DNA of 59,933 bases, the filler included, from Jimgerdemannia flammicorona (lineage: Eukaryota): NCBI GenBank assembly GCA_003990765.1. It is 3 parts of 3 records of this genome, joined end to end, with 100 filler letters (N's around TTAATTAATTAA, not from the genome) between each part and the next. Parts side by side here need not be neighbours in the genome. Positions count along the whole stretch, not along the records: positions 1 to 19,912 come from RBNJ01001807.1; 2 more parts are not named here. One strand, given 5' to 3'. Positions 1 through 59,933 of this stretch are shown in pieces. Made by a program: the position numbers and the translations under genes. How positions within the stretch are numbered: position 1 is the stretch's first letter; each line of letters opens with the position of its first letter. The notes under the pieces were generated by a model that saw nothing but the letters and a program-made list of their open reading frames with translations, was not told where the DNA came from and did no database searches.

Positions 1-39
1 CCCCCTAGGGGGGCCCCCCCCACCCACCTCTACTCTATG

Positions 40-3000: not shown

Positions 3001-3628
3001 CCCAACATTCAGCCATCAGAATCCAGTCAATCCTGGTACTCAGTCTATTTATCTAGTGTGTATAGACCCTTCTGTCACCCCACTGTGTTCTGCCCATATC
3101 CCCTAAGGAGCTAAGGTTCTCCACCTCCTCCCACTTATCCAGTCCACCACTCCTCCCACCCGCACTCCTTCCTCCATCAGTCCTATCCAGCTGTAGATTC
3201 CATACCATATTAAAGTCACCTCCCAGAATATTGACACCTTCCACCAAGAAGACACCCTCCTCCAACAGATCCCTAATCTACTCAATCTGCTCACCCCTAA
3301 CTGCAGGGCAGTAGCAGGAGCCAACCCTCACCAATTCTCACCCAGGTCAGTACCATTCTCCCCAGACCAAATAGTTCCCCCAGCTCTGAATTCTGCCCAA
3401 GTCCCCTCTATCCTTCCTCACCAGAATCACCACTTTGCCATTCCAAGTAGTAGTCCCTCCCCATTCTCTAGTCCACTCCATCTGATCTTTCTCATCCTCA
3501 TACCATACATCCTGTAGTAAGAAGAGATCAGCCTCCAATCTCTTAAGCCAAGTAAAAATGTTCCTATGCTGCTCCAATCCCCATAACCCATTTATATTTA
3601 GAGAGAAAATATTAGTTATACTGTTCAT
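40..3628 (-). pseudogene. LINE ORF2 (APE-RT-zinc finger) with in-frame stops; RT core open at 791-2269
   Basis: ORF fragments 3347-3628, 3053-3265, 2447-2671, 791-2269 and 357-545 follow canonical ORF2 order. Catalytic FADD reads FADN (G>A). The 3' limit is approximate. Confidence 0.88.
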
Positions 3629-3649
3629 AAGGAATAATGTTATTTGTCA

Positions 3650-5127
3650 GTTACCTTCTCTACAACTCTGCATTCAGCTCCTCCTATGCCAAGTCTAAGA
3701 CATATTCCACAGCCAGTTCCTTCTCTTCAGTCACCCATGTCTCCAACCCAGTCAGAAATTCCACCATTGCCCCATCCTCCTTTTCCTCAAAGTCCTCCCA
3801 GTATTCCAGACATGCCTCCTGTCAGAGTTGTAACCCATGATGCTCTGCCCAACAATAGGCAGCCTGCTCACCCACAACAGTCACCAACTCAGCCTCCCTC
3901 CCCTCATCCACCACATATTCCTCCTCCTCCTTCAAAATCACAAGGATCTCTGCCCTCAATACCTCCACTACTCCATCCCCATGCAAAATCCATGCCCAAT
4001 GCTCCTCCAGCATCATACACAGGTCAACTTCTCCCAATGCCTCAGCTGCAAGATTATCCATCATCTTGCTCATCCACAGCAGGTTCTCCACCTCCTTTCC
4101 TCCAGGTGTCCCTGGCTGCCCAGTATCCAGTATCATGGTCACTGACAGCCTCATCCCACTCCTCCTCTGGGACATCCACCAGCTCGTCCTCACCAACTGC
4201 CACCATCTGTCCCCCTTTCACCACATCTGGGACCCCAAAGTGAACTCATTGGGCCCCCTACATCAGCACATTCTCTGCTTCTCCTCTCTTTCTAACAGGG
4301 CCCCTCCTGATAAGTAGAGAAGAGGTACTATCCAAATCCTCCTCCCAAACTTCAAATGTACTATCAGCATAGAGATCCTTGCCCAGTGCCTTCCCAGCTC
4401 TTTCTCCATTTACCACCACCTCCTCTCCTCTCTTGCTAGCCCAGATGCTGGCTTCGATGCCTCCAGACTCCTCAGCCCCATCCACCTTCTTCTTTGCCCC
4501 TCCTTTCATACTCACCAAAAGCTCCCTCTGCCTCCTGCACCTCTGGGCCTGCTCCCACTGTCTCTTGTCAATGCAAATATGCTTCCCATCTACAATCTCC
4601 AGATGCATCAATTTCTCAAACATTCTCCAGGCCTTCACTCTCCTCTCAACTGTACCACTCAACTCCTCTAGAGCCTCCAACAAGTCCTCCTCCTCCTCTT
4701 CACTCCCTTTCATCCTCAACACCTTACAGACAAAAGCCCCCCACATTAGCACCAAGGGCCAGTCACTCATCTTTTCTGTAGCCTCCTTCCCTGCCAGCCA
4801 AATCCTGACATCGACATCACCCATCCTAAATGTGGTCCCCTCCCACATCTGGAAGCCAATGTCCACTACATCACTATACTCCCCCATCACCTCCTCTACC
4901 CTTCTCCTAGTCTCCACTTTCATCACTGTCAGCACCCCCCTCACCAGAAGCTGTACCACCCTGGGGTCCCACCTCAAGCACCACACCATGGGAACCACCA
5001 CTTCCCCAACCACTACTCTAGTCTTCAGAGCCTCATCCAGTGGACCTGCCTTCTCAAAGCCTACCTCAACCCCCTCCAGTCCCTTTAGGAACTTCACTGA
5101 AGCTGCCCCAGCCACCTGTTTCGAAAT
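3650..5127 (-). pseudogene. LINE ORF1, partial
   Basis: ORFs 4258-5202 and 3822-4196 match ORF1 of copy 2 (KQVAGAASVKFLK...; VVDIGFQxWEG..RMxDxDVRIWL). The N-terminal MSSGTSS part of the called ORF is antisense gypsy sequence. Confidence 0.8.
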
Positions 5128-6030
5128 CGAGGAAGAAGAAACTTCTGACCAAGAAGTTCCTGAACAAGAAGCACCTGATAAAGAAGAGGTCCCTGAACTC
5201 ATTCCCTAGGATGACCCTCGCTAGACACCACCTGAAGACAATGACCCATGGAATACAGAAGAAGGACCCAGTATAATCACCATTATCACCAAGAAAGAAA
5301 CCTACCAAGAGAAAGCTTTTCAGCTAGGAAGATGTCTGCACCAAATGGTCTTCCATTCTCCCCGAGACTACTGCTATCAGTGTCATCTATTGGACCAATA
5401 AGAAAGACAGAGATCCCAGAGACCAGAATCCCCAACTACTCTTGCACAGTCTACTATCTTTCAAGAAGTCACCACAAGGTTACAAAGTCAATTTAGGGGA
5501 CAAGGCTTCTTCACCCAAACAGAAATATACCCCTTGTCTACTCTTCCCCCAACCTATGATCAAGATGGGTACTGATTCCCAAGACAACAAGAGATAAATA
5601 GCCAGGAACATCATTCTTGAGCAATGGGATATTGCAACTATGGGAGACACCCTGATTGCTGAGACTGCAGACATCAGAAAATTCACCTCAGTCATGATGT
5701 TGCAGTGCATACCTTGAAGAAAGGAGATAACTGAAGCCAGATCCAAAAAAGCCAGATTCAAAAAAGTCAGACCAAGAAGCCCAGAAAAAGAATTCTCAAG
5801 ATCTACGATTTGGGAGAAGACATCCTAGCTCTTATCAGACATGCAACTCACCAAGGATGGGAGAAGATGCCACCAACTTTATAGAAGCCCTTGACCCTAC
5901 AGGAAGGAGGGGAATCAATTACCTCCAAGACCCCTCTACTGGAGCCAGATGGCCACACCTCAACCTTAGAGCTTGGAGGCTTTCCACTAGTAGAGCTTCA
6001 GCCTTAGGAAAACCCGAACTCAGCAAGGAT

Positions 6031-6444
6031 ATTGCCCAGTATACCCTGCTGCACCCCAAGGCCAAACCCCCAATCAAAGCCCACTCAGAGGATATAGGAT
6101 ATGACCTTTACAGCCTGAAGAATGAATCTATCAAGCCTGGAAAAACCTTTATGGTCAGAACTGGATTAGCCATACAGCTATCCTAAGGAGTATATATTCA
6201 ACTGACCTCAAGGTCCAGACTTGCCAGATAAGGGATAACTATAGAAGGAGGAACCATTGACCCTGGATATATAGGTAAAATCAAGGTTATCCTACACAAC
6301 AGCAGTGCAGAATGGTACTGAATTATTAGAGGACAGAAGATTACCCAAGCAGTCTTCATGAAGGTCAAGACCCCATAGTTACAGGATGTCTCTGAACTAA
6401 CTGAAGGAACAAGACAAGCCAAGGGATTTGGAAGTTTAGATAAG
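6031..6444 (+). pseudogene. dUTPase domain within gypsy pol
   Basis: All five trimeric dUTPase motifs lie in one frame: GYDL, SRSRLA, GTIDPGYIGKI, GQKITQ, RQAKGFGS. Several in-frame stops. Confidence 0.9.
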
Positions 6445-6959: not shown

Positions 6960-7886
6960 CCATACAATCTATCATATCACCACAGCATAAATATAGGAAA
7001 TGTAACACCCATCTAGCAGAAACCTTATAGAATACCCCATCACTTGAAAACATTCAAAAAAGAGCACATCCAAGAACTCTTAGACAATGGAGTCATCCAA
7101 CCCTCTACTAGCCCCTGGGCCAGCCCTATACTTATTGTACCAAAGAAAGGAGGATGGAGACTCTGTGTGGATTACAGAAAACTCAACTCAGTCACTGAAA
7201 AGGATGCTTATCCTTTGCCCAGAATTGATGACCTTTTGGACCAGTTACAAGATGCCAGATACTTCAGTAGTATGGATCTATTTGCAGGATTCCATGAGAT
7301 CCCCATGGACCTGAAGGACATCCAGAAGATAGCCTTTCTTACTTTAGGAAAACTATTTGAATACCTCTGAATGTCTTTTGGACTTTGCAATGTACCCCCC
7401 ACCTTCCAGAGGATGATGAATTCAGTCTATGCCCTCTTGATCCACCCTTGTCTGATTGTATACATGGATAATTCCAACATCTATTCAGCAAATTTCGAAG
7501 AACACTTGCACTACCTAGAGGAATTCTTCAAGCTCACCTGCAAGAATCACTTGAGATTGAATGTAAAGAAATGCTACTTTGAGAAACAGAAACTTGAATT
7601 CCTGGAATTTATGGTCTCAAAAGAAGGAACTCATGCAGACCTAAAGAAAACCAAGAAGATCAACAATTGGCCAGTACTCAAGACTCCAAAAGAAATACTA
7701 TCATTCCTGATGCTAGTATCCTACTACAGAAGGTTTATCAAGGATTTTGCCCAAATTACTGCCTCAATCCGAATCCTTCTCAAGAAAGGAATGACATTCA
7801 AATGGACAGAATCACAGGAAAAAGCCTTCAGAGAACTCAAGAACCACATGACTACAGCATCAATCCTTATGTGCCCCAATCTATAG
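6960..7886 (+). pseudogene. Gypsy reverse transcriptase
   Basis: ORFs 7044-7370 and 7371-7886; SMDLFAGFHEI, MSFGLCNVPPTFQRMM, YMDN (from YMDD). Confidence 0.93.
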
Positions 7887-8255
7887 AAGCCATTCATCTT
7901 GTATACAGATGCTTCCAAAGATGGCCTAGGAGCAGTTCTAGCCCAAGAAGGACCTGACCAACAGCATCACATGATAGCTTATGCAAGCAGAGCTACCAAT
8001 CAGCAGCAGATGAACTATGGTAGCACCAAACTAGAATATCTTGCAGTCATATGGGCAGTCACCCTGTTCAAACATTACCTCATCGGAAAAAGGTTCACCC
8101 TGATCACAGACTATGCAGCTCTCAAATGGCTATTCAACCACAAGAAACCCACCAGAATTCTAGCCCACTGGATCCTTATCCTTCAGGATTACAAAATCAT
8201 CATTATTTACAAAGCAGGGAAAGCCCACAATAATGTTGATATACTTTCCCGATAG
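7887..8255 (+). pseudogene. Gypsy RNase H
   Basis: YTDASKDGLGAVLAQ, KLEYLAVIWAV, ITDYAALKWL, NVDILSR. Confidence 0.92.
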
Positions 8256-8260
8256 CCCCA

Positions 8261-9290
8261 ATGAACCAGAAGAAGGGTGTCCCAAGGAACCACACCCTAA
8301 AGGAAGCTCCTCAGACCATCAAGGAACAAGAAAATCTCATCCAACAAGAACATCAGAAAGCCCACCAAGGACAGACATGCATAGAAGACAAGATTCGAAA
8401 ACAATATCAACATTGGCCCTATCTCAGAACCCAAGTCCAAGACATCATTCAGAAATGTGACATCTGCCAGAAGTATCAAGGAAAGAAGAACTATCAAGCC
8501 CCTCTGCAACTGATTCCCCCACCCACTCACATCTTTCAAAGATGGGGAGTAGATGTAATTGAACCTCTACCAGTTACACCAAGAAGAAACAAATATATCC
8601 TTGTATTTGTGGAATATCTGACCAAGTGGCCTGAGGCTTTTTCAATAGAAATTGCAAATACCTTAACCATTGTAGGCCTCCTCCATAGACTCACACTCAG
8701 ATATGGACCCCCAGAAGAACTCATCTCTGACCGAGGCACAGAATTCATCAACAACATAATTACAAGTTATGCCTGAATTCACAAGATCCACCTCAAAAGG
8801 ACTATATCATACCACCCCCAGACCAATGGCATGACAGAAAGAATGAACCAGACCATTAAGAAAGGATTTGCCTGAGTCAATCCTACTAATTGAGACCTCT
8901 GCTTATCTGAGATCCTATGGGAAATTTGGAACACCCCTGCTGCATCCACCAAATAAAAGCCATTCGAAATGATGCTGACTATGAGAATCTTGGAGACCTC
9001 CTCAAGAAGGCAGAACAGTTATGTAATCAAGCCCAAGGATAGATTATCAAAGCCCAGGAAAGACAAAAGAAGTACTATAATCAAAAACAGAAGGATCAGG
9101 AGATCAAGATTGGAGATCAAGTTCTAGTTTGGAGAAACATGATTGAGACAAACTTTGCTGCCAAACTAGAACTGAAATGGGAAGGACCTTATCTTGTACA
9201 CAACATCAGAGAAACTAGTATCTATTTAAGAAGTATGGATAGATGAACCCTGAGAACACCAGTACACATCAATTACCTCAAACTATATTT
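8261..9290 (+). pseudogene. Gypsy integrase (HHCC, DDE, GPY/F)
   Basis: HQKAH...CDIC, WGVDVIEP, LISDRGTEF, YHPQTNGMTERMNQT, KLELKWEGPY; stops after 8776. Confidence 0.92.
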
Positions 9291-9302
9291 CCCCTCTACA
9301 CC

Positions 9303-9818
9303 ATGAGCCAAAGGATTGATCAGTACCTTCAGACATTGGTCCTCAGCTCTTTCCAAGTCCTACCAGTCCCTCTACTCCAATTCGGCCAAGCCAATGGAAG
9401 CCCCCTTCAAAGGATTCAAGCTCATCAAGAAAATCTCACCCTGGCCAGATGCCTACTACAAGTCCACCAACTGCAGGCCTATTATGCAATCAGTGAACAA
9501 TTGCAGAACCTCCCAGCCCCAGAACAGACCTATATCAGGAACACCATGGGTCTGACCAGAAGAGACACTACTGCCGCAGACAGACTATACACCATTTATA
9601 AACAAAATGTCACAGCCCTGGCACAGGCACAATTCTCCCTGAATGATATTCAAGGAATGAACCCTGTTACCTATTTGAGCATCACCAACTCTGTCAAAAT
9701 CCTATTCTCTGAAGAAGAAGAAGAGCTCATAGAATGGAGTGACCCCAGTATAGACAATAAAGATGATGGAACAGATATAGATGCAGAAGCAGCCTATGCT
9801 TATTGGGATGATGACTGA
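9303..9818 (+). CDS. Accessory ORF of unknown function (~171 aa) between integrase and PPT
   Basis: Open frame MSQRIDQYLQ...AYAYWDDD ends ~30 bp before the PPT. A homologous decayed ORF occupies the same position in gypsy copy 2 (~58240-58745). Confidence 0.7.
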   Translation: MSQRIDQYLQTLVLSSFQVLPVPLLQFGQANGSPLQRIQAHQENLTLARCLLQVHQLQAYYAISEQLQNLPAPEQTYIRNTMGLTRRDTTAADRLYTIYKQNVTALAQAQFSLNDIQGMNPVTYLSITNSVKILFSEEEEELIEWSDPSIDNKDDGTDIDAEAAYAYWDDD

Positions 9819-9857
9819 AGAATAGTCTGGGACAGACTACCCTTCAGTAGGGGCTGA

Positions 9858-10252
9858 TGTACCAAACCAAAACATACCACCAGAACTATATCTTAACCAA
9901 ATGACACAGACAATTAGGCAAGATGACATAAACACACAGCATAGTAACCAGCAACCATTGCTGTGGAAAACTATATAAATAGCCAGATATACCAGAAAGG
10001 GTCTGTTTACCTGTACAGACTCTGTATATCTGCCATAAGTAGCAGATCTATAATTAGCCACATAGTAACCAGATAGCAACCACAATGTATAAATTACCCC
10101 AGAGACAAGAGTGAATAAACCTCAGTCCAAAAAGTCCAAAATTCAAAGCAAAAGACAAGTCTGCCTACCACACTTCAAGAGGAACTCTACAGCTACTGCT
10201 AGGGGATTGTGAGCTTATTTCCCCTTTCCACTCTAGTCCACTTTCCAATACA
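9858..10252 (+). repeat. Gypsy 3' LTR (TGTA...TACA) preceded by PPT AGTAGGGG
   Basis: Purine tract at ~9846-9853, then TGTACC; ends CCAATACA. Internal blocks align with 58784-59250. Confidence 0.75.
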
Positions 10253-11984
10253 AAGAATGAGTTTGTTTTTGGTTCACTTGCCAGATAAGCCTGAAGATTT
10301 GCTGCCTAAGTTCAAGGAGAACTTTGCCGCCTTTTGAGTAACCCGCCACTTAAGGAATAAGCTACCATTTCCAAGTTATTCTCCACCTTCCCAAGAAAGC
10401 CACCTTGCTCAAGCCAGTTTCTGACACAACTTCGCAGTGGAGCCAGTCTATGACATAACCCCATACAAATGAAGCCAGTCTTTGATGTAACTTTGCCAAG
10501 AGACCCTTTCCCAAAGAACACTACCAGTTGTTTGTATTTCCAGAAGAGTCTGATCTGGAAGAACTCACACCATCCAAGTTATTCTCAGTTGAAGCCACCA
10601 TTTTCAGGTTATCCACATTCCCAGAAGAATCTAATCTGCACTGTCCAAGTTATTATTCTCAGAAGCCTACCAATTCAGAAAGAATCCATGACCTCCGAAT
10701 TATTCGTTGTTCCCAGTGAGCCCAAGTTATCAAGTTCTCTGCTGCTAGTACAATTCCCAGTAAACCCACATCCAAATTAAGTTATCTACCATCATCTAGA
10801 AATTGCATACTTTTGAGATCATCATCACTAAAGAAGGAAACTGTTAAATTGCCAGACCATCATGCACAAGGAGATTGTCACACTACACAAGAGATCATCA
10901 TGCCAGAAATCGTATACTTTTGGAGATTACCTCCCTCTAAGTCACTAATTTATGACTTATTTTTTTCTTCTTCATATACTTTGATGTTATCACACATATG
11001 GCAAACTAGTTCACTTCCTTTAGCACTTCAGGGACAAATATAACTGAGAGTGTTATCTGGTTTTTAAGAAAAGTATTCATTTTGTTTATCTCTTTCAATT
11101 TATTTGTAATAATTATGATATTGGAAACATTTATGTCTAACTGTCTTCATAAGTAGTAATATCTCAATCTAATATAATTTTATATTATAGACAATAGATA
11201 GTAATCTGATCTCATCTCTCACTCTCTTTTTGATTAATAGTTCTATATCAAAAAGATCAATCAAAATTTTCTTTATTTTTAGCCTTAGTTAAAGCTTGAT
11301 TAAAAATCTTTATTTTGTTTTTTTCTCAATCTTTGTTAGTATTTTCATCTAATTCTTTTTGCAGGAGAGTTTCAGTATATCCTCAGCAACAAAACTCAAT
11401 TCTTTCTCTTTCTTCTTGGTCTTATCAGTTGATAGTTAATTCTTCTTTATTTTGATTATAATTAAAACATTCTTTTTTGATCATAATACTTTTTTTTATG
11501 AAGCAAGAGATAATAATAAAGAAAGAATTATGAGTTATATTTTAGCTTACTTATTGTGATTATCATGTATGATGAGTATTGAATAATTGAAAGGTTGTAG
11601 AAAGGGGTGAGTGAAAGAAAAATCTTTAAGCCTAGTATCCAAGTAATGTCAAAAGTTCACTTTATCTGGTTTTGTTGCAACATATTCTATATAAGAGTCA
11701 ATGCAATAATGAAAAACAAACCAGTATATATTTTTTTAATAAAGTTGATAACTAAGTTACCCATTGGGAATATTTTTATAAAACTAAAATAAAACATTAG
11801 GGTCAAAACACTTTATTTCTTATCAACCTCTCTATACTATTCAATTATATTTAAAAGTTAGATATTCTAAACTTCTACTCTAAAAGTAGGTAGTGTAGAT
11901 AATGTCTCAAGATATAATGCCAGATTATGATATATATTGTATGAGGTTTATAATATATATAGGGGATGAACATCTGATATCTGA

Positions 11985-12442
11985 GAATAACAAACAGGAT
12001 AATAGAGGCTGAGCAATGGATGCCGAGTAATAAATGCTGAGCAACAGATACCAAGTTGAGTAATAGAGACTGAGATGGACTGAGTTAAGTGACAAAGGCT
12101 GAATGACAGAGACCAAGTGACAAAGGCCAAATGATGGAGACTGAGTGACAAAGGCCAAATGACAGAGACTGAGTAACAAAGGCTAAATAACAGAGACTGA
12201 GTGACAAAGGCTGAATGATAGAGACTGAGTGACAAAGGCTGAATGATGGAGACTAAGTGATAAAGGCTGAATGATGAAGACTGAGTGACAAAGGCTGAAT
12301 GACAGAGACTGAGTAACAAAGGCCAAATGACAGAGACCAAGTAATAAAGGCTAAATAATGAAGACTGAGTAATAAAGGCTGAATGACAGAGACTGAGTGA
12401 CAAAGGCCAAATGATGGAAACTGAGTAATAAAGGCTGAGTGA
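11985..12442. repeat. Minisatellite, 14-bp subunit with 28-bp higher-order unit (GACAAAGGCTGAAT GACAGAGACTGAGT)
   Basis: About 12 clear 28-mers from 12091 and more degenerate units upstream; variants are mostly transitions. Confidence 0.9.
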
Positions 12443-13169
12443 TGACCTATTATTAAAATAAAAGTGAAGTAAGGATATATATAAAATATAAAAATATAAT
12501 AAAAGTATAGTATTCCCTTACCTATAACTATCTTATAATGGTATACTCACATATGTCTCAATATGATCACACACATATCACTCCAAAATATTTAATTTTA
12601 ACTTATAAAAAGAAAACATATCTTAACTATCCATTGACTAAAGTCTGTTGGCCTTAAGTTAAGATGTGGGAAAATATTATAGTAGAGTGGATGTGGATGC
12701 TACATTCTTACTAGTAATATACTATTGGTCTGGTATAGTTACTCAGAGACTAAATTTGCACAATCATGATTATATCTCAATTGTCAAGTATGAGTCTCAT
12801 CATAGTTCATCAGAGTAGTATCCTTACTAATGGAAAGAGAATTTAACACAAAGAGAGTATATGATATAAATAAACTACTAAGGATAATAATATTATAGTA
12901 TAATATTGAAGTATGAAGATAGTATAGAGTAGAATAATATAGCATAGAATGAAGAGAAAATGTGAAGTGAAAAAGAAAGGTATTTATAAGACATTCATGA
13001 GTAGTATGCATATGTGAGTGATATGTATATAGGAGTAGTATGAGAGAGAGGATATAAAAGAATACTATGCATACAAATGAATAGTTGATATATTTGTGAT
13101 ATTTTATAACTCATCCAAACAAGAGCTTGAAATAAGGACTTGAAACAAGGGCTTAAGGTCAAAAGCTCT

Positions 13170-13290
13170 TTATTGCTCTAAGTTCTTTGCTGCTCACTGC
13201 CTAAGTTCTTTGCTACTTGCTGCTCTAAGTTTTTTACTGTTTGCTGCTCTAAGTCCTTTGCTACTTACTGCTCTAAGTTCTTTACTATGA
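13170..13290. repeat. Short tandem repeat, ~24-bp unit (CTCTAAGTTCTTTGCTGCTTGCTG)
   Basis: About 5 imperfect copies; reads ELRAASSK repeats on the minus strand. Confidence 0.8.
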
Positions 13291-13705
13291 CAGAGTTTGT
13301 AGGACATAGGAAAAACTATAAAGGATGTGACCATCATAGAAACAGTGAGACATACATGGATAGGGTAATACCCTTTCTCCACTACAATTCACATTATACA
13401 CACTTTATAACATACTTTTAAGTTGTTTATTGGAGAAAGATATTAAGGCAATGTTGACTAGCAAGCAAGCCGACACACATACTAGATTAGGTAGACCTGG
13501 GGCCTTCAACTGGCAGCATGTCAGGAGAGGGTATGGACTGGGAATAGGGTCTTTTGGTGGCCCAGGTGGGTAGGACAGCTTGAGTAGTGGAAGTGGTGCT
13601 GGTGAGGGGGCTGGAGAGCAGTAGGGGAGGAGCTTTGCAGACACACTGAGGTCAGGAGGTTGGCCAGTTGGAGATCGCAGTGGACAGATAGGAGGGAAGG
13701 GGAAG

Positions 13706-15490
13706 ATGAAGGTTGGGAGTACTGGGGGAGCTGGGACTTTAGTAGTGGGAAGTGGCAGAGGTGGAGTAGCTACTGGGGCTAGTGGTGGGACTGCTGATGG
13801 CAGTATAACAGTGAATCAGAAGGAAAAAAAAAGAGATGTGATGGCTGATGGTCAGGGGGGACAGGGGTTCCCGATGAGGAAGGGGGATCTGGTAGATGGT
13901 ATAACAGGACTGGCTGTAGCCCCATTGCTCAAGAAGTCAATTTTGGAGTTTGTGGTGACCTTGTACTTCTGGGGCTTGGTGGTGATGGCAAGGATGGTTC
14001 TGGGGCTTATTTTGAAGCAGGTGGCTGGGGCAGCCTCAGTGAAGTTCTTGAAGGATCTGGAGGGGGTCGAGGTGGGCTTTGAGGAGGCAGGCCCACTGGA
14101 TGAGACACTGAAGACTGGAGTTATGGTTGGGGAGGTAGTGGTCTCTATGGTGCAGTGTTTGCGATGGGACTCTAGAGTGGTGCAGCTTCTGGTGAAGGTG
14201 GTGCCCATGGTGACTAAGGAGGAGACTAGGAAGAGGGTGGAGGAGGTGATAATTGAGTATGGTGATGTGGTGGACATTGGCTTTCAGGTGTGGGAGGGGA
14301 TAATGATCAGGATGGATGACATTGATGTCAGGATTTGGCTGATGGGCAAGGAGGCTACAGAGAAGGCAAGTGACTGGCCTTCTGTACTGATGTGGGGGGC
14401 ATTCATCTGTAAGGTATCAAGGGTGAAGGGGAGTGAGGAGGAGGAGGAGGACTTGTTGGAGGTGTTGGAGGAGATGAGTGGAGCTGTGGAGAGAAGAGCA
14501 AGGACCTGGAAGATGTATGAGGAGTTGACATATCTGGAGGTTGTAGATGGGAAATATATCTGTACTGACAGGAAGCAGTGGGAGCAGGCACAGGAGTGTA
14601 GGAGGCAGATAGAGCTACTTGTAAGTATGAAAGTAGAGGTAAAGCAGAAGACAGTTGGAGCTGAAGGGTCTGGGGGTGTCAAAGCCAGTGTTTGGGTGAG
14701 TAAAGGGGTTGGGGAGGTAGAGGTAGGTAAGGAAGGAGCTGAAAAGATGCTGAGCAAGGACCCCTATACTGATGGCACTTTTGAGGTCTGGGAGCAGGAG
14801 CTGGATACAATCTCCCCCCCTCTTATCAGGAGGGGCCCGGCTGGAAAGAGACAGACAACAGAGGATATACTGATGAAGGGGGCCCAGTGAGTATACTTTG
14901 GGGTCCCTAATGTGAAAAAAGGAGGTCAGGTGGTGGCAGTTGGTAAGGATGAGCTAGTGGATGTCCCTGAGGAGGAGTGGGATGAGGCTGCCAGTGTAGG
15001 GACTGACACTATGATGTTGGATGTAGGATGGCTGGGAACTCCAGGAGGGAAGGAGGTGGGGAACTTGCTGTGGATGAGCAAGGTGATGGATAACCTTGCG
15101 GCTGAGACTTTGGGGGAAGTAGACCTGTGGGTAATGCCTGAGGAGCATTGGGTACAGATTTTGCATAGTAAGGGAGTGGTGGAGGCACTGAAGGGGGAGA
15201 TTCTTTCGATTTTCCTGGAGGAGAAGAGATATGAGGTTGATGAGGTGAGGAGGGCTGAGCTGGCAGTGGTTGCTGGTGAGCAGGCGGCATACTGTTGGGT
15301 GGAGTGGCATGGTTTGCAGCTCTGGCAGGAGGCCTGTCTGGAATATCATGAGGACTTTGAGGAGTGAGAAGATGGGGTGATGGTAGAACTTCTGGGAGGG
15401 TTGAAGGCACAGGAAGCTGGTGAAAGGGAACTAGCTGCTGATCATGACTTAGATTTGTTGCAGGAGGAGCAGGATGCAGAATTGTAGAGG
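13706..15490 (+). pseudogene. LINE ORF1
   Basis: 394-aa ORF 13706-14890 plus 14912-15367; homologous to ORF1 of the other copies. Confidence 0.8.
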
Positions 15491-15519
15491 GTGGGTTCAC
15501 AATACAACATTTTTTTCTT

Positions 15520-18500
15520 ATGAACAGTACAACCAACATTTTCTCTTTGAATGTAAATGGGCTAAGGGGATCTGGGTGATATAAGAACATTTTTAATTGG
15601 CTCAAGGAATTGGAGGCCAATCTCTTTTTACTATAGGATATTTGGTGTGAGAATGAGGATAATTGGGTTGAGTGGACTAGAGAATGGGGGGGGGGCTACT
15701 GCTTGGTTTGGAAAGTGGCAATTCTGGTGAGGAAGGGTAGAGGAGACTTGGGGGGTATTGGGAACTGGGGTGATCACTTGATCTGGGGAGATTGGCATCA
15801 GCCAGGGTGGGAGTCAGTGAGGGTTGGCTCTTGCTACTACCCTGTGGTTAGGGGTGAGAGGATTGCATGGATTAAGGAGCTGCTGGAGGAGGGTATTCTC
15901 TTGGCAGAAGGGGTTGATGTGCTTGGGGGGGACTTTAATATGATTCAGGATCAGCATCTGGACAGAACTGATGGTGGGAGGAGTACAGGAGAGAGAAGTG
16001 GAGGCCTGGATGCATGGGAGGAGGTGGAGTGGCTGAGCTCCTTAGGGGATATGGGCAGAATATGATGGGGCAACTCCAGGGTCTACATGTATTGGGTAAA
16101 TAGCTTAGGTATAAGGATTGACTGGATTCTGATGGCAGAATGCTGGGGGTCTGATGTCTGGAAGGTATTGGAGGTGGAATGGTGTCCATGGTCTGATCAC
16201 TGGGGACTGTTGGGACAGGGGCAGTTTGGGGAGAATGGAGATGGACCTGGACATTGATGCCTTAACTCCTCCCTGCTGACTGAGAAGGGGTTGTGGGATT
16301 CATGGAAAGAGAACATTCAGGTGAAAGTTTCTTACTGGAGGTGTGAGGGTTTGTCAGTGGGTGTCCACTGGATGAGATTGAAAGAGGCTGCAAGGGTCTA
16401 TTAGAGAGGGGCTGGGAGAGAAGCTGGGAGACAGAGAAGGAAGTGCACAAGGTGTGCTTCCAACAGACTGAGGAGATTGCAAATGAATTGGGCAGGTTTG
16501 CTTACTTCTGATGAGGTGGAGGATTGGAGGTTAGCACAGATTAAATTGGAGATAATGGAACTGCAACAGGTGTTAAGAGAAGAGGAGAAGGTGCATATGT
16601 GAGGTATGGTTGCTAGGCTAAGGTGGCAGGGGCTTGAGGAGGATGAGTGGCCTACTAGATATTTATCCCATCTGCTCAAAGCTAAGAGGGTGAGACATCA
16701 GTGGAATGGAGTCCTAGATGCCAATGGGGTCATGGTACATGGTATACAATAAATCTTAGGGGTTTTGAAAGAGAGATGGCAGGGTTTGTGGAGTGAGGAA
16801 GAAGGGGGTGCTGATGAGGTGGCTATTGAAGATACATTAGGGGAATGGAGGCTGCCATAAGTGGCTGAACTGAATGACTTGGCCTTACCAGTGTGAGGTG
16901 AGGAGGTCCAGAGTGTCCTTGTGGCAACTAAAACTGGAACAGCACCAGGGGAGGATGGATTACCATGGGACTTCTGGAAGAAGATGGTGAAGGTCCCCGG
17001 CATTTTGGGTGAGATAACTGCTCTCTGTGACTATGTTCTTCAACAAGGTGAGTGGGTTGGAGAGCAGGACCTTGGGCTGGTGGCTTTATTGTACAAAGAC
17101 AAGAGAAGGAGGGAAGATTGGAAGAACTGGTGACTGATCATACTTTTGGATATGGACAGAAAGATGGTGACTAAGGTGGTTGTTGCAAGGCTGCAGAAGG
17201 TTGCCCAACAGGTGCTGGGAGAGGAGCAGCAGGGCTTTGTTAGAGGCAGACTCATAAGAGATGAGACTGCTTGGGTACATGGTGTCATTGAAGGGGCCTA
17301 GACTTGTGGACTGGATGGAAGGTTGATCTTCTTAGACCAAGAGAAGGCATATGACCGGGTCCAGTGAGTTTGGCTGGATAAGGTGTTGGATCATATTGGT
17401 GTTCCCCCAGGATTTCGGGCTTCTATATTGAATCTGCTCAAAGGTAGTCAGGTGGCGCTGATGTATAATGGTCACCATGGTCTGGTATTTACCTTGAGAA
17501 GAGGAGTTCCTCAGGGGGACCCCCTGTCCCCTATTCTTTATACCCTTTTGTTGGAACCATTGATGGATAGGATTCATCAGAAGGTGGTAGGGCTCTCTAT
17601 TTATAGAATAGTGTAAAAGGTGGGAGCCTTTGCAGATGATATAATAGTTGGCCTTAGGTCTGTGGCAGATGTTGAGGTACTTCAGGAGACAGTGGAATGG
17701 TATGAGGATCACTCTGGGGTGAAGCTCAACTAGCATAAGTGTGAGACTATGGTGCTAGGAAATGGGCTGGTGGGTGGGGACATCATTGGAAAAATTGTCC
17801 CTACTGGTGAGGTAGTATGGTATCTAGGCATCTTCCTCTCTATGTATGGCTCTGTCTTGCCACAAGTGTGGTGGGAGAGCAGAGTGACTGTTTGGGGGGA
17901 GGCCCTTCGAGATTGGGGAGGCCACCATATCTCTCTAGCAGAGCAGATGTCAATTCTGAATATATACTGATTTCCCAAGCTGTGGTATGTGGCCTACCAC
18001 CTAGACTTCCTAGCTTGGGTGGTGAAGAGGCTGACAAAGGTGGCTAGGGATTGGATTTGGGGAGGAAGGAGGTCCCAGATCAGTTGGGATACTCTTGTGA
18101 TACCGGTAGTCAGAGAAGGTCTTGGCCTTGTTGGATTTCCCTAAGAGGTTGCACTGCTTGCGAGCCTGGTGGTTGAAGAGAGCAGCTGAACTGCAAGGAG
18201 GGGGTTGGGTGCCTCTGCTGCAGAAGGTGTGGGAGATGAGAACCTCTCCCCAAGAGTCCTCAGGAGATCTACTCTCTTTAGTAGGGCTCAATGGAAATTG
18301 GAGGCTGCAGTTTAAGGGCTTTTGGTAGGGAGTGGTTGATGGAGCACACAGAATTGGTCTGCGCTGGTGAGGCAATGAGGAGGAGGTATTGTGGGGACCT
18401 AGTATGTAGTGATGGGATAGACTACTACTAGGGGGTGCTCTACTTGCTACTTTTGATATTGGGGATGGAGTGGAGTGTCAGCAGGGTCTTGGCCAGGATC

Positions 18501-18747
18501 TTTGGCTGAGCAGTTGGCAGGCAGTAGGGATAGGTGAGGAGTGGGACTGGACAGGTATCTGGTCTTAGAGTGCTAAGGTATGGCGGTGGTTTCCCCCCAA
18601 GTTCTGGATGATATGGTGGTGAATGCTGCAGAGGAATATCATGCTAAATTTCTGCACTGAGCATCTGATGGATGGTGGCTGTTTCGATTGTGAGGAGTGT
18701 TACAATATAGGATAAGCTGAGGGTTTAGTGCAGATGCCAGAACATTG
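15520..18747 (+). pseudogene. LINE ORF2 (APE-RT), many stops
   Basis: GGDFN, RIDW and SDH endonuclease motifs; RT motifs; stops are largely TGG>TAG/TGA and CAR/CGA>TRR type. Confidence 0.88.
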
Positions 18748-19912
18748 TGCTCCTTTCTCCACTATCTTACCGGTCACAAGGTTTGGTAGGTGACCTTCCA
18801 AGTCCCCTTTCTCCTAATATTACCCCCTCTATCTTGGGTTGGTTTGCTGTACCTGCAGGGGCATAGTAGGAGGAGGGCAATAGTGATGAGTTGCCCCTTT
18901 ATCAGTGTCAGATCAGTGCTTTCTCCACTTTTTCACAGATTCTGGTGCTTTCAGCTGCATCTGGGGTGTACCCATTTTGGTGCGACACCTTCTTCCTTTT
19001 GCTGTTGCCAACAAGGTGCTGTCTCAGTGAGTCTTGGGCTACATAGGACCTTGGGCATCAAGTGCTCAGTGTAGGTTACCTGCAGGTCCTCGGTGCCTAT
19101 GGTGGGGCTCTCTGGCTTTGGCGAGCTTCTCAGTGAGCGCAGTTCTGGCCTAGGTAACTGTTTTTTGGATGTTGTCAGGATGGAAGGGGAGATGGCTATC
19201 ACAGATAGGAGGAAGGGCAATTATGGTGAACCAGTAGGGTGCCAGGCTGGGGGCAGTCATCGGGGCTGAGGCAGGTGCTGCTTTGGTGGGGCCTTTTGAT
19301 TGGTGCGGCACAGTTAGGTGGTAGGTGTCACTCTTGGCTTCTTTTGGTGATTCATGGGATTGGGCCCCGGTCATTGGGGGGGGTCGGGGGGCCCGAGGCT
19401 ATTTATTTCAGATATCTTGGCTGTACTCAACTGGAACCAGAAGTTGACATGGCAATATGATCGAGGCCTGCAGGCTTGAGTAGTGGGGTATTGGGGGTCT
19501 CCTCCCACCTCATGTGTATGTCCTCTACTTACCTTGACTGGGAGAACTAGGCCCTACCCACCATGTTGTGCTTTGATGAGGGTTTTTTCTTTACCTGTCA
19601 TTCTCTTTGGAGTGACAGGGGTTATTCTATTCAGCTCAGACATGGTCTTGTACATATATTGAGTTCTTGGGCATATGCTTTCGGTCTTTGGCATATGGCT
19701 GGGTTTTCCTCTGGTGGTAGGGAGAGCATGGTGCACAGAATGAGGTATGGGCTACTTTGCCCTGCTGTACCTGGCATGGTTGAGCTACTGGACAATAGCT
19801 AGCCTAAGTTAATGGGGGGGCAGTACTTGATAGATGGTGGGGGAGGGTTTTGGCCTATATAGTCTAGGTTCCCTTCCAATAAAAATCTGCGGGACATAGA
19901 GTCCGTTAAAAA
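18748..19912 (+). mobile_element. Probable 3' fragment of a different, 5'-truncated non-LTR retroposon inserted in LINE copy 2
   Basis: Abrupt loss of homology at 18747; CpG-poor. Ends with AATAAA (19878), a GGAC-ATAGA-GTCC hairpin and an A-run at the contig end. No clear protein motif. Confidence 0.45.
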
Positions 19913-20012
19913 NNNNNNNNNNNNNNNNNNNNNNNNNNNNNNNNNNNNNNNNNNNNTTAATTAATTAANNNNNNNNNNNNNNNNNNNNNNNNNNNNNNNN
20001 NNNNNNNNNNNN
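19913..20012. other. Artificial contig linker N44-TTAATTAATTAA-N44
   Basis: Exactly 100 bp; the 12-mer gives stops in all six frames; identical to 39924-40023. Confidence 0.97.
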
Positions 20013-57400: not shown

Positions 57401-57575
57401 CAGACTCCACCCCAATCTATGATTCCTTCTTACATACTGCTAGTCAAATATACTAGGGCCACCCTACCCTGTATGCTCCTCAGAACACTCATTAGTTGTT
57501 ATATTGTTATTATCTTTTTATTTATAAAATATCTAATCAATGGCCCAAAGTATTTTCAATGGAAATTACTGATAA
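51484..57575 (-). mobile_element. LINE subfamily B copy, near full length (no poly(A) seen); 5' region interrupted by a MITE
   Basis: RT remnants (GPFTDDMV, VSQGDPLL), APE start ~55157; 5' UTR 57312-57575 aligns with the other copies. Confidence 0.9.
56894..57303. mobile_element. hAT-type MITE, 410 bp
   Basis: TIRs TAGTGCTC...GAGCACTA; perfect 8-bp TSD ACTCTGCC (56886-56893 and 57304-57311); TGAAT/ATTCA subterminal pentamers. Confidence 0.93.
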
Positions 57576-59250
57576 CTTGACCATTGTTGATCTCCTCTAT
57601 GATCTTATCCTCAGATATAGACCTCCAGAAGATCTTATCTCTGACTAAGATACAGAATTCATCAATAATATAATTACAAGTTATACTTAAATTTACAAGA
57701 TCTACCTGAAATAGACCACATTATATTACCCTCAAACCAATGATAGAACAGAATGAATAAATCAGACCATTAAGTAAGAACTTGTCTAAGTCAATTCTAC
57801 TAATTGGAATCTTTACTTATCTGAGATCTTATGGAAAATTCAGAACATCTTTTTATATCTACTAAATAAAAGTCATTTAAAATAATGTTTACTAAGAAAA
57901 TCAGATCTGCTAATTATGAGAACCTTAAAGAACTTCTTAAAAAGACAGAATAATTATATAATTAAGCCTAAGTTAAGATAATCAAGGCCCAGGAAAGATA
58001 AAAGAAATACTTAACCAGAAGTTAAAAGATTAGAAGATCAAAATTAGAGATCAAGTACTAGTCTGAAGAAGTATAATCAAAATAAACTTTATTACCAAAT
58101 TGGAGCCCAAATGAGAAGGATTTTATCTTGTATAAAATATTAGTAGAATAAGTTTCTATATAAGAAGTATGGATGAATATACTCTGAGGACTCTAGTATA
58201 CATTAATTGCTCAAGATATACTTGCTCTCATATAATAATTCATAGAATTGATCAGTACTCCAGACCCTTGTTCTCAGTTCTCTTTAACCTCTACTAATTT
58301 CACTATCTCAATATAGAGAAATAGTTAGCAACTACTGTCAATTGATCCAGATTTATCAAGAGAATCTCACTATAGTCTAGCAACTTCTAGAGATCCACTA
58401 GCTATAGATATACTATACTATTGGAGAACAACTACAGGACCTCTCAATCTCTGAGTATATATATACTAGATATCTCACAGATCTCATCTAAAGAAATACT
58501 ATTATAGCAGATAAACTCTATACTATCTATAAGTAAAATAGAAGAGTATTAACTCAGGTCCAATTTCATCTTAGAGATATTTAGAAAATGACCCCTGCCA
58601 CTTACCTGTGCTTTATCTATTATATTGTGATACTATTTTTAAAAGTAGAAGAGAAGTACTTAAATAGAGTAGTTCTGAAACTAAAGAAGATAATAAAACA
58701 GGAGCTGATGCAGAATATGCTTACTCATATTGAAATAATAGATAAAAGCTAGCTAGAACAGACCATCTTTTATTGGTGGCTGATATGATAAGTCAGCAGA
58801 GTAATATACTAAGTTACTATTAAAATTGGTTATAATACTCTACTATACCAACTAATATAAATAACCCAGATAGGTAAATAAGAATATAAAGTATTTCTAG
58901 CTAAAATATCATATTAGAATTTGAGATTAGTAATCCTAGCTAGTATATTATACTAGATTTTGAAATTTATATTTTTAATAAAAATAGCTAAATATTAACA
59001 GAAATAGTAATCTATAGTTAGCTATATAGTAACTAAATAGCATCACAACTGTATAAAATATCCCAGGGATAAGAGTGACCCAAAAGTTCAAAAGCAAAAG
59101 CTAATTATCTGATATACTTAGGAGAAATATCTGCCAAAAGCTACTTTATCTAGAAAGGATTGCAATACTTAGGAGATATATCTGCTAACAATTCACTATA
59201 AGAAGTTATGAGCTTTGTCTTATTCTTACTCTAGTTTACTTTCTGATATA
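57576..59250 (+). mobile_element. Gypsy copy 2, same family as 5128-10252: integrase C-half, extra ORF, 3' LTR (58784-59250), heavily mutated
   Basis: Colinear with ~8660-10252 (ctcagatatagacctccagaag, accctcaaaccaatg, ttgatcagtac, ctctagtttactttctgatata). Confidence 0.88.
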
Positions 59251-59907: not shown

Positions 59908-59933
59908 GCTATTTTGTGAAAAAGTAAAAAAAA

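What the first reader, a model, noticed from the sequence alone, without database searches (positions are those of the whole stretch)
9303..9818. Conserved accessory ORF in the env position of a gypsy family
Seen: a stop-free ~171-aa ORF sits between integrase and PPT, while the neighbouring pol domains carry stops. A diverged, decayed homologue occupies the same slot in copy 2 (~58240-58745; RIDQY, QENLT, LYTIYK, AEYAY recognisable), so it belongs to the element. It has no signal peptide or hydrophobic TM stretch, looks helical, and has a very acidic tail (EEEEELIEWSD...AYWDDD), so it is not env-like. Inference: an uncharacterised retrotransposon accessory protein, possibly a chromatin or anti-silencing factor in a genome with strong repeat silencing.
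Basis: partly seen in the sequence, partly recalled or inferred. Interest (0 to 1): 0.72.

Follow-up and report, generated by a model that had tools for sequence, protein, structure and literature searches.

The report
Conserved extra gene in gypsy retrotransposon
A family of gypsy-type jumping genes, probably fungal, carries a small third gene right after its integrase that has been kept as a working protein-coding gene but resembles no known protein.

Summary
Window 9303-9818 (+) is a stop-free 171-codon frame lying between the integrase stop and the putative polypurine tract and 3' LTR of a 5'-truncated, decayed Ty3/gypsy element that carries a dUTPase. A heavily C>T/G>A-mutated second copy has the same slot at 58235-58745.

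That the frame is open in this one copy is only marginal evidence (P about 0.04-0.06). The family gives the real evidence:
- 13 related proteins turned up among 5.8 billion. Four of them (55-74% identical), like the window, run from the same start to the same C-terminal motif.
- Three metagenome DNA loci place the ORF directly after integrase.
- Substitutions pile up at third codon positions (59/38/86, 27/18/63, 22/15/49). dN is 0.14-0.34 and dS is 0.7 to saturated, giving omega of about 0.1-0.2, like integrase.

The integrase stop and the ORF start overlap as AT[G/A]A in 4 of 4 DNAs. Nucleotide identity drops sharply at the integrase/ORF border (98% to 57-78% in one pair), so the ORF seems to be exchanged as a module.

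The protein has no membrane segment, a helical core and a tail of net charge -15 to -18. It has no Pfam, PDB or fold match. It is a real non-env accessory gene (ORF3). Its function is untested; I favour a host-interaction or regulatory adaptor role.

The parts
5731..6186 (+). dUTPase remnant of the gypsy pol (decayed)
   Evidence: Pfam dUTPase is weak here (E 3.7e-4). The same domain in the intact relative L003 scores E 1.6e-15.
7017..8255 (+). Reverse transcriptase and RNase H, one frame interrupted by stops
   Evidence: Pfam RVT_1 and RT_RNaseH (E 2.5e-35). There are 5 in-register stops in 494 codons relative to L003.
8240..9306 (+). Integrase (zinc finger, core, GPY/F-type C-terminal module), decayed; ends with TGA 9304-9306
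   Evidence: Pfam Integrase_H2C2, rve and zf-H2C2. There are 6 stops and 8 gapped codons in 361 codons relative to L003. A 22-nt piece is missing at 8974 relative to metagenome contigs. No chromodomain.
9177..9302 (+). ORF3 reading frame upstream of its ATG, overlapping the integrase tail; possible alternative start at ATG 9177
   Evidence: This frame is open for 42 codons in L003, and P0005 reads 41 residues upstream of M1. The window has two TAG codons, and L001 and L002 have one stop each, all where other copies have CAG/CAA/TGG. Whether it codes is undecided.
9303..9306 (+). Stop-start overlap ATGA (integrase TGA, ORF3 ATG)
   Evidence: ATGA in the window, L001 and L002; ATAA in L003. Residue 2 is S, N, T or I in every family protein that shows the start, and I recall that N, T and I codons all begin with A.
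9303..9818 (+). ORF3: 171-aa soluble protein with a helical core (about residues 1-135) and an acidic/aromatic tail (about 136-171)
9846..9853 (+). Putative polypurine tract
   Evidence: A purine-rich run just before a TG, conserved with copy 2. This is inference; no 5' LTR is present to confirm it.
9855..10348 (+). Putative 3' LTR (TG...CA), with a TATAAA-containing block near 10090
   Evidence: The copy 1/copy 2 alignment runs to 10348 and ends in CA in both copies. Contig depth peaks at 10050-10123 and falls after 10346. No matching 5' LTR is in the window.
57511..58234 (+). Copy 2: integrase remnant, AT-rich
   Evidence: blastn gives 73% identity to 8596-9350. Differences from copy 1 are C>T 181 and G>A 140.
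58235..58745 (+). Copy 2: ORF3 remnant, 10 stops and 5 deleted bases
   Evidence: tblastn with P0002 gives E 1.5e-28.

Best explanation
ORF3 is a genuine third gene of a narrow family of dUTPase-bearing, chromodomain-less Ty3/gypsy retrotransposons. The host is probably a soil or root fungus. ORF3 encodes a soluble protein of about 170 aa, free of membrane segments. It has a helical core with net charge +2 to +4 and a disordered tail (net charge -15 to -18) with conserved Trp and Tyr residues. Shown: the gene is kept open and under purifying selection across lineages whose synonymous sites are saturated. It sits directly behind integrase in every DNA copy seen. Its start codon overlaps the integrase stop codon. 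It is far more diverged than the adjacent integrase, with an abrupt drop in identity at the border and at least one mosaic copy. Inferred: (a) It is translated as a separate protein from its own ATG, either by termination-reinitiation at the AUGA overlap on the genomic RNA or from a spliced or subgenomic RNA (I put about 45% and 35% on these). (b) It is exchanged between element lineages by recombination, as a module. (c) It acts in trans as an adaptor or regulator, with the helical core binding an element component or nucleic acid and the acidic/aromatic tail recruiting a basic or hydrophobic host surface such as a transcription co-activator or histones. It would then promote the element's transcription or chromatin access rather than particle entry. 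The confidence given is for 'real, selected, separately encoded non-env accessory protein of the element'. The adaptor/regulator mechanism alone I put at about 0.3.
For: Family: 5 hits at 71-77% identity. A profile search found 13 proteins among 5.77 billion. Only 5 representatives were found among 1.84 billion. The window plus 4 database proteins (P0002, P0003, P0011, P0012; 55-74% identical to the window) run from the same start to the same C-terminal motif and end there. Context: in 3 of 3 metagenome loci the ORF follows integrase directly. Selection, as differences at codon positions 1/2/3: W-L001 59/38/86 in 163 codons (chi-square P 7.5e-5), W-L002 27/18/63 (1.4e-7), L001-L003 22/15/49 (1.3e-5). 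With transversions only, W-L001 is 27/18/42 (P 0.006). dN is 0.21-0.34 and dS is 1.1 to saturated. In the least saturated segments omega is about 0.20 (L001-L002, 67 codons) and 0.12 (W-L002, 48 codons). The integrase control in the same pairs gives omega 0.12-0.16. Overlap: AT[G/A]A in 4 of 4 DNAs, with a purine at -3. Modularity: in 60-nt windows, L001 and L002 are 90-100% identical through integrase and 57-78% after the ORF3 start; the other 3 pairs also drop at the border. L002 has a B-type first part and an A-type second part. Protein: no hydrophobic segment and an acidic tail. The best AlphaFold model is all-helical for residues 1-134 with pLDDT 74.6 and pTM 0.63.
Against: No RNA or protein evidence exists: no listed holder is on record as RNA, and all four runs laid are Logan contigs of soil and root metagenomes of type 'DNA?'. 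dS in ORF3 is saturated, so whole-gene omega values are rough. The C-terminal third shows no codon periodicity (20/14/20, P 0.51). In two decayed copies ORF3 carries more stops than integrase (5 in 287 codons against 3 in 722, Fisher P 0.046), so copies with a broken ORF3 may still spread and the gene may be dispensable in cis. Protein databases hold only called ORFs, which favours open copies. Only 1 of 5 AlphaFold models reached pLDDT 74.6; the others scored 45-55. No conserved RNA structure was found upstream of the AUGA (consensus -8.9 kcal/mol; z -1.0 for L003). The start is ATA in L003 and isoleucine in P0013.
Confidence: 0.8

Rival explanations
1. ORF3 is not a separate protein but a C-terminal transframe extension of Pol, reached by a -1 ribosomal frameshift near the end of integrase. 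It would be a trans-frame substitute for the chromodomain.
For: ORF3 lies in the -1 frame relative to integrase. That frame is open upstream of the ATG for 42 codons in L003 and, in the other copies, is closed only by C>T/G>A-type stops. The window has a phased T TTC CCC heptamer just before the stop.
Against: The heptamer is absent from L003, and L001 and L002 read differently there. I recall that this type of heptamer slips poorly in eukaryotes. The ATG is kept exactly at the pol stop, with a purine at -3, in 3 of 4 DNAs. Protein conservation begins at M1, and the ORF3-frame peptide just upstream varies and carries an indel. No longer fused protein was found (0 hits among 852 candidates of 301-2000 aa; weak evidence).
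Confidence: 0.07
2. The gene is longer. It starts at the ATG 126 nt upstream (window 9177), inside the integrase tail, giving a protein of about 213 aa that overlaps integrase in another frame.
For: That ATG is present in 4 of 4 DNAs, and the frame from it is open in L003 and in protein P0005. Synonymous change in integrase is lower in its last 64 codons in L001-L003 and L002-L003 (5 of 55 against 71 of 258, P 0.003; 6 of 58 against 71 of 254, P 0.004).
Against: The ATG sits in the codons of a conserved integrase motif, so it may be conserved for that reason alone. The two pairs are not independent and the cut-off was chosen after seeing the data. The window-L003 pair shows no such reduction (15 of 51 against 65 of 235, P 0.86). 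Shared recent ancestry of that segment explains the reduction as well. A 42-codon open alternative frame is not rare by chance.
Confidence: 0.08
3. The frame is a non-functional leftover or chance ORF, for example a degraded env or spacer, and looks conserved only because copies are young.
For: The open frame in the window copy alone is only marginally unlikely (P 0.04-0.06). There is no known domain or fold. The tail is of low complexity.
Against: The copies compared are not young: third positions differ at 53-69% while amino-acid identity stays at about 50-60%. The substitution pattern is strongly periodic, also for transversions alone. Length and end point are the same in the window and 4 database proteins that reach the C-terminus. 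There is no membrane segment that would mark an env remnant.
Confidence: 0.03
4. ORF3 is a host gene fragment picked up by one element lineage, with no role for the element.
For: Capture of cellular genes by LTR elements is known (recalled). The origin of ORF3 is unknown.
Against: Whole-database searches returned only short proteins of this family, and every one for which DNA or upstream sequence was seen is joined to the integrase tail. No free-standing or longer homologue was found. Selection persists across two deep subfamilies.
Confidence: 0.02

Closest known systems
Additional ORFs (ORF3, 'aORFs') of LTR retrotransposons, e.g. the family-specific ORF3s of bdelloid rotifer Vesta/Juno elements
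   Same: A sense ORF between pol and the 3' LTR. It is lineage-specific, not env, and modular. The rotifer lineages also carry a dUTPase and a GPY/F integrase without a chromodomain (PMC5408684, abstract and section 3.1-3.4 read).
   Different: The rotifer ORF3s with assigned origins are esterases, exonucleases or membrane proteins. This one has no enzymatic or membrane signature and no sequence or fold relative. The host here is probably fungal.
'add. ORF' of unknown function drawn in fungal gypsy elements (Novikova et al. 2010), and the dUTPase-bearing gypsy elements named there
   Same: Fungal Ty3/gypsy elements with a dUTPase and, in some, an extra ORF of unknown function (PMC2864245, passages and the Figure 3 legend read).
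   Different: I saw only the legend and passages, not the figure or supplement, so I cannot tell whether any of those ORFs is this family. Those elements are mostly chromoviruses; this one has no chromodomain.
brtn, the extra gene of Boty-like (BcGypsy1) elements in Botrytis cinerea
   Same: An extra gene in a fungal gypsy element (PMC8365987, passages read).
   Different: The cited paper's title calls brtn an antisense gene. ORF3 is on the sense strand, and no antisense ORF of 50 aa or more overlaps 9303-9818. The sequences could not be compared because brtn was not available to me.
Chromodomain at the C-terminus of chromoviral integrases
   Same: It occupies the same place, immediately after the GPY/F module of integrase. 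In chromoviruses that place holds a chromatin-targeting module (recalled).
   Different: ORF3 is in another frame behind a stop codon, has no Pfam chromo match and is all-helical.
Env of errantiviruses and retroviruses
   Same: The position 3' of pol, and divergence much faster than pol with exchange between lineages.
   Different: No signal peptide or membrane anchor (maximum 19-residue hydropathy 1.36), 171 aa, 0-1 cysteines, no env family match.
Stop-start coupled cistrons of fungal viruses (hypovirus CHV1 UAAUG; victorivirus AUGA)
   Same: The stop codon of the upstream ORF overlaps the start codon of the downstream ORF. Coupled termination/reinitiation is stated for CHV1 (PMC2699510, start of the abstract in the search listing only). 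The victorivirus AUGA is recalled; only titles and the starts of abstracts were seen.
   Different: Those are RNA viruses with mapped stimulatory elements. Here no conserved upstream structure was found and there is no expression data. I found no paper reporting this for an LTR retrotransposon (search; 12 of 47 listed).

Membership tests
Ty3/gypsy (Metaviridae) LTR retrotransposon (the element that carries ORF3) | pol domain order RT - RNase H - integrase | tested here: met
   Pfam RVT_1, RT_RNaseH, Integrase_H2C2 and rve in that order in the window and in L003.
Ty3/gypsy (Metaviridae) LTR retrotransposon (the element that carries ORF3) | Two flanking LTRs with primer-binding site and polypurine tract | tested here: inconclusive
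   Only a putative 3' LTR (9855-10348, TG...CA) and polypurine tract were found. Both window copies are 5'-truncated and no LTR pair was found.
LTR-retrotransposon additional ORF (ORF3 / aORF) | ORF on the sense strand between the end of pol and the polypurine tract/3' LTR, shared by copies of the family | tested here: met
   Found in the window copy, window copy 2 and 3 of 3 metagenome loci.
LTR-retrotransposon additional ORF (ORF3 / aORF) | Maintained by selection rather than open by chance | tested here: met
   Third-position excess in all 6 pairs. Omega is about 0.1-0.2 in the less saturated segments. The window and 4 database proteins share length and end point.
Retroviral/errantiviral env | Signal peptide and/or transmembrane anchor | tested here: not met
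   Maximum 19-residue Kyte-Doolittle mean is 0.94-1.36 in 5 of 5 full-length members.
Retroviral/errantiviral env | Similarity to a known fusion glycoprotein family | tested here: inconclusive
   No Pfam family at E <= 0.01 for the window protein and none below 0.06 for 14 members. No Foldseek match at E <= 0.001 in PDB or BFVD. Best VIA Z is 4.1.
Chromoviral integrase chromodomain | Chromo domain fused in frame to the integrase C-terminus | tested here: not met
   Integrase ends at TGA 9304-9306 a few residues after the GPY/F-type module. ORF3 is in the -1 frame. No chromo hit in Pfam.
Termination-reinitiation (stop-start coupled) downstream cistron | Overlapping or adjacent stop and start codons, conserved | tested here: met
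   AT[G/A]A in 4 of 4 DNAs.
Termination-reinitiation (stop-start coupled) downstream cistron | Stimulatory RNA element upstream of the restart site | tested here: inconclusive
   The consensus fold of 4 sequences is weak (-8.9 kcal/mol; 2 pairs with compensatory change). The L003 fold has z -1.0. Reduced synonymous change is seen in only 2 non-independent pairs. The host 18S rRNA was not available.
Termination-reinitiation (stop-start coupled) downstream cistron | Downstream translation depends on upstream termination | not testable with these tools
   Needs reporter assays or ribosome profiling.
Retroviral transactivators with an acidic activation domain (foamy-virus Tas type; recalled) | C-terminal acidic/aromatic activation region | tested here: inconclusive
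   The composition fits: net charge -15 to -18 with conserved W and Y. Composition alone does not show activity.
Retroviral transactivators with an acidic activation domain (foamy-virus Tas type; recalled) | Sequence-specific binding to the element's own promoter | not testable with these tools
   No DNA-binding fold was recognised. Weak helical matches (Z up to 4.1) are at noise level.

The most novel reading that the evidence does not exclude
ORF3 is a retrotransposon-encoded trans-acting regulator, made by ribosomes that terminate on pol and restart at the conserved AUGA. Its helical core docks on the element's DNA, RNA or integrase. Its acidic/aromatic tail recruits host transcription or chromatin machinery, as a transactivator, an anti-silencing factor or a trans-acting stand-in for the missing integrase chromodomain. 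Its deep allelic lineages and exchange between elements reflect an arms race with the host's repeat-silencing system. This would be the first regulatory accessory protein, and the first stop-start coupled gene, described in a fungal LTR retrotransposon.
Probability: 0.15. Interest if true: 0.8.

Novelty: new variant of a known kind. Interest (0 to 1): 0.5.

Why it matters
Extra ORFs behind pol are often dismissed as env remnants or noise. Here one is shown by substitution pattern to be a selected gene of an orphan protein family. It has an unusual 4-nt stop-start junction with pol, and its history is decoupled from pol's. If it modulates transcription, silencing or integration, it would give fungi a counterpart to the accessory genes of complex retroviruses. 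It would also offer a handle on how retrotransposons persist in genomes that mutate and methylate repeats heavily. At the least it is a family that annotation pipelines should stop missing: only 2 of the 13 database proteins carry any name, and that name is 'hypothetical protein'.

Tried and rejected
Own genome: none is held for this window, so no copy census could be made.

Cluster look-up of the hits: the database is switched off.

First metagenome scan, using subfamily-A peptide patterns: 439 pattern matches, 0 relatives. The second scan, with subfamily-B patterns, gave L001-L003.

Sequencing runs: 7 runs listed; 5 hold small shares (0.05-0.17) of the stretch's words, all from soil or root metagenomes. 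No RNA holder is listed.

Reads laid: all four runs laid are contigs. They gave family variants but no information on transcripts.

Fused or longer forms: 0 hits among 852 candidates.

Pfam: nothing at E <= 0.01 for the window protein. The best among 14 members is E 0.062 (LST1), which I take as chance.

PDB sequences: best E is 0.52.

ESM Atlas: no usable hit.

First AlphaFold model (8 sequences): pLDDT 53, and Foldseek against PDB found nothing.

Second AlphaFold model (14 sequences, pLDDT 74.6): Foldseek against PDB best E 0.51, BFVD best E 0.14, and the VIA-align wide search best Z 4.1 with none at 5 or above. This does not show a new fold.

RNA structure upstream of the AUGA: nothing convincing.

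-1 frameshift site: a phased heptamer in the window is not conserved.

Overlap-region constraint: mixed result. The window rows of the 300-nt block are misaligned by the window's 22-nt deletion and should be ignored.

Earlier findings of this scan: nothing by place, sequence or words.

Literature: 5 full-text searches and passages of 6 papers turned up no description of this protein family. bioRxiv supplements and the figures and supplements of PMC2864245 were not seen and could bear on that.

Host identity: Tmt1 of Tuber was considered because it has a dUTPase, but passages of PMC12581995 say Tmt1 has a chromodomain, which this element lacks. The host is left unnamed.
Full report
**What is in the window.** Positions 9303-9818 (+) hold an ATG-to-TGA frame of 171 codons. 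Upstream lie, in order, a weak dUTPase match (5731-6186), reverse transcriptase, RNase H and integrase (Pfam). This is a Ty3/gypsy element. There is no chromodomain. The integrase ends a few residues after its GPY/F-type module, at TGA 9304-9306. That stop overlaps the ORF's ATG (9303-9305) as ATGA, and the ORF is in the -1 frame.

About 30 nt after the ORF's stop comes a short purine run and a TG. From there a block conserved with the second copy runs to 10348 and ends in CA. I read this as the polypurine tract and a 3' LTR of about 494 nt. Contig depth peaks inside it. No 5' LTR is present; both window copies are 5'-truncated. No antisense ORF of 50 aa or more overlaps the ORF.

**The observation.** It is confirmed.
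- Pol is broken. Read in register with an intact relative (L003), the window has 5 stops in 494 RT-RNaseH codons, and 6 stops plus 8 gapped codons in 361 integrase codons. Metagenome contigs show a 22-nt piece missing at 8974.
- Copy 2 aligns through the whole ORF at 58235-58745.
- Going from copy 1 to copy 2, C>T (181) and G>A (140) dominate the differences in all dinucleotide contexts.
- CpG is almost gone: observed/expected is 0.07 in the element and 0.0 in the 25%-GC blocks.

**Chance.** The open frame in this one copy is weak evidence. With 6 stops among 42 C>T/G>A-susceptible integrase codons, and 21 such codons still intact in the ORF, P(no stop) is 0.039. Per codon it is 0.058. The window copy is itself decayed: of the 40 best-supported differences from soil-metagenome contigs, 29 are window T/A where the contigs have C/G, and 11 of the 40 fall in the ORF (434 further differences were not shown).

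**Relatives.**
- A word-seeded search of 5.77 billion proteins gave 5 hits at 71-77% identity.
- An exhaustive HMMER pass over 1.84 billion representatives gave 5.
- A profile search gave 13 in all. Only 2 of the 13 carry a source name, 'hypothetical protein', and none has a Pfam domain.
- They form two subfamilies that differ by a 5-residue indel.
- Four database proteins (P0002, P0003, P0011, P0012), 55-74% identical to the window, span the whole length and end at the same motif and stop as the window. P0010 is a C-terminal fragment with the same end.
- P0009 diverges after about residue 72, as a frameshifted copy would. The others stop earlier, and for most of these I cannot tell a truncated contig from a mutation.
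- No longer, fused form was found (weak evidence).

**DNA of relatives.** A second metagenome scan returned three loci. In all three the ORF follows integrase directly.
- L003 has an intact 361-codon integrase, a 494-codon RT-RNase H frame and a clear dUTPase (E 1.6e-15). Its contig ends 83 codons into ORF3, and its start reads ATA.
- L001 has one stop in integrase and two in the ORF3 tail.
- L002 has two stops in integrase and three in 118 ORF3 codons.
- All stops I inspected sit where other copies have CAA, CAG, CGA or TGG.

**Selection.** On a codon alignment (ungapped over the first 68 codons), differences at codon positions 1/2/3 are:

| Pair | Positions 1/2/3 | Codons |
|---|---|---|
| W-L001 | 59/38/86 | 163 |
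| W-L002 | 27/18/63 | 115 |
| W-L003 | 30/15/57 | 83 |
| L001-L002 | 25/21/47 | 110 |
| L001-L003 | 22/15/49 | 83 |
| L002-L003 | 21/14/49 | 81 |

. Chi-square P ranges from 7.5e-5 to 1.4e-7 for the three pairs tested. The pairs are not independent.

The excess remains: 27/18/42, P 0.006.

dN is 0.21-0.34, and dS is 1.1 to beyond what the Nei-Gojobori method can estimate. In the two least saturated segments omega is about 0.20 (L001-L002, first 67 codons) and 0.12 (W-L002, 48 codons). Integrase in the same pairs gives omega 0.12-0.16, and 0.39 for the nearly identical pair.

The last third of ORF3, which is the final helix plus the acidic tail, shows no periodicity (20/14/20, P 0.51). Its conserved Trp and Tyr positions and its end point are nevertheless kept.

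Against a strictly essential role, L001 and L002 together have 5 stops in 287 ORF3 codons but 3 in 722 integrase codons (P 0.046).

**A decoupled history.**
- ORF3 changes about three times faster than integrase at non-synonymous sites (0.34 against 0.10 for W-L001). It is also far more diverged at synonymous sites.
- In 60-nt windows, L001 and L002 are 90-100% identical through integrase and 57-78% after the ORF3 start. The other three pairs also drop at the border.
- L002 joins a B-type first part to an A-type second part.
- Faster protein evolution cannot raise synonymous divergence. The simplest reading is therefore that old ORF3 lineages are reshuffled among elements by recombination. This is inference.

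**Start of translation.**
- The 4-nt overlap is ATGA in the window, L001 and L002, and ATAA in L003, where the pol stop is kept as TAA.
- In every family protein that shows the start, residue 2 is S, N, T or I. I recall that N, T and I codons all begin with A, and the window's serine is AGC. This fits a fixed A that doubles as the last base of the pol stop.
- The ATG has a purine at -3 in all four DNAs.
- This layout is that of stop-start coupled cistrons. Coupled termination/reinitiation is stated for hypovirus CHV1 (PMC2699510, start of the abstract in the listing). The victorivirus AUGA and the SART1 and LINE-1 cases are recalled, not read.
- I found no conserved RNA structure upstream.
- The ORF3 frame is also open for 42 codons upstream, to an ATG embedded in a conserved integrase motif. 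Synonymous change in integrase is reduced there in two non-independent pairs but not in the window pair. A longer overlapping gene or an RNA signal is therefore possible but unproven.
- A phased heptamer in the window is not conserved, which argues against a -1 frameshift fusion.
- A spliced or subgenomic RNA could not be tested.

**The protein.**
- It has no hydrophobic stretch (maximum 19-residue hydropathy 1.36) and 0-1 cysteines.
- The core has net charge +2 to +4, and the last 36 residues -15 to -18.
- The better AlphaFold model (14 sequences) has mean pLDDT 74.6 and pTM 0.63. It shows helices at 3-16, 34-69, 72-82, 86-100, 103-107, 113-118 and 121-134, and a tail with pLDDT below 50. Only one of the five models reached this score.
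- Pfam, PDB sequences, the ESM Atlas, Foldseek (PDB and BFVD) and an exhaustive structural scan (best Z 4.1) give nothing above noise. That does not prove a new fold.

**Most likely mechanism.** Shown: a selected, element-borne, non-env protein gene that evolves fast and is exchanged as a module. Inferred: a trans-acting adaptor or regulator. The reasons are as follows.
- It has no enzymatic or membrane signature.
- It pairs a compact helical domain with a long acidic tail studded with conserved aromatic residues. I recall that this composition is typical of activation domains and histone-binding tails.
- It sits exactly where chromoviruses carry a chromatin-targeting domain.
- Its evolutionary tempo resembles that of host-interaction genes rather than replication enzymes.

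I put about 0.3 on this class of mechanism and cannot choose between transcriptional activation, anti-silencing and integration tethering. A predicted-complex test of binding to integrase was not run by the tool.

**Host.** The host is not identified. The family is abundant in contigs of soil metagenomes from two studies and is present in a root metagenome: 799, 117, 48 and 3 contigs were laid at 80% identity or more. dUTPase-bearing gypsy elements have been reported from basidiomycetes and Tuber (passages of PMC2864245 and PMC5408684). The window shows RIP-like C>T decay and extreme CpG loss. A fungus is therefore likely, by inference.

**Known versus new.** Extra ORFs behind pol are a known, heterogeneous category:
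- Rotifer ORF3s (PMC5408684, sections read).
- An 'add. ORF' of unknown function drawn for fungal elements (PMC2864245, legend only).
- The antisense brtn of Botrytis (PMC8365987, passages).

Five full-text searches found no description of this protein family, or of a stop-start overlap between pol and a third gene in an LTR retrotransposon. I rate it a new variant of a known kind, of moderate interest. It is solid as a gene and open as to function.

Noticed in passing
window 1-5000, 13000-20000, 31000-36000, 40000-57000: Blocks of extreme strand asymmetry, with GC skew about -0.5 or +0.5 over 5-17 kb. They coincide with non-LTR (LINE-like) elements. One has an intact 498-aa RT frame (791-2287, minus strand; Pfam RVT_1 E 5.7e-25) and an endonuclease-like frame at 3347-3646 (minus strand). 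The coding strand is G-rich and C-poor, and CpG observed/expected is 0.09-0.10. The cause of the skew is unexplained.
   Followed up: partly
window 11000-12000, 23000-30000, 36000-38000, 57000-59933: Blocks at 25% GC with CpG observed/expected 0.0 and TpA 1.27. Where a less mutated copy exists (copy 2 against copy 1), the difference is C>T/G>A in all contexts (rates: CpG 0.83, CpA 0.50, CpC 0.43, CpT 0.32). This is RIP-like hypermutation of repeats.
   Followed up: partly
window 12030-12505: A tandem array of a 14-nt unit (alternating, effectively 28 nt), about 20 or more copies, next to the element's 3' flank.
   Followed up: no
L003 3-1382; window 5731-6186: The element family carries a dUTPase upstream of RT (E 1.6e-15 in L003). 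No aspartic protease family was found apart from a sub-threshold Spuma_A9PTase match (E 0.006) at the start of the RT frame. Where the protease lies is unclear.
   Followed up: partly
L002 1216-1569 compared with L001 and window: L002 is a mosaic. Its integrase is nearly identical to L001's (36 differences in 357 codons). The first 67 ORF3 codons are B-type, and the rest is A-type like the window, including the 5-residue insert.
   Followed up: yes
window 4258-5205 (-) and 13625-14890 (+): Two long open frames (315 and 421 aa) share long identical peptide stretches and an acidic run. They are probably ORF1 of the LINE-like family. No Pfam family passes threshold. The border of the truncated gypsy copy (about 5130-5210) abuts one of them, and 5000-5127 matches 14009-14136 in reverse at 87%.
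   Followed up: no
L001/L002 versus L003, last ~80 integrase codons: Synonymous differences fall to 7 of 68 identical-residue codons in the last four 20-codon windows for L001-L003, against about 26% elsewhere. The window-L003 pair shows no such fall. It could be a cis-acting RNA signal, an overlapping coding stretch, or just a recently shared segment.
   Followed up: partly
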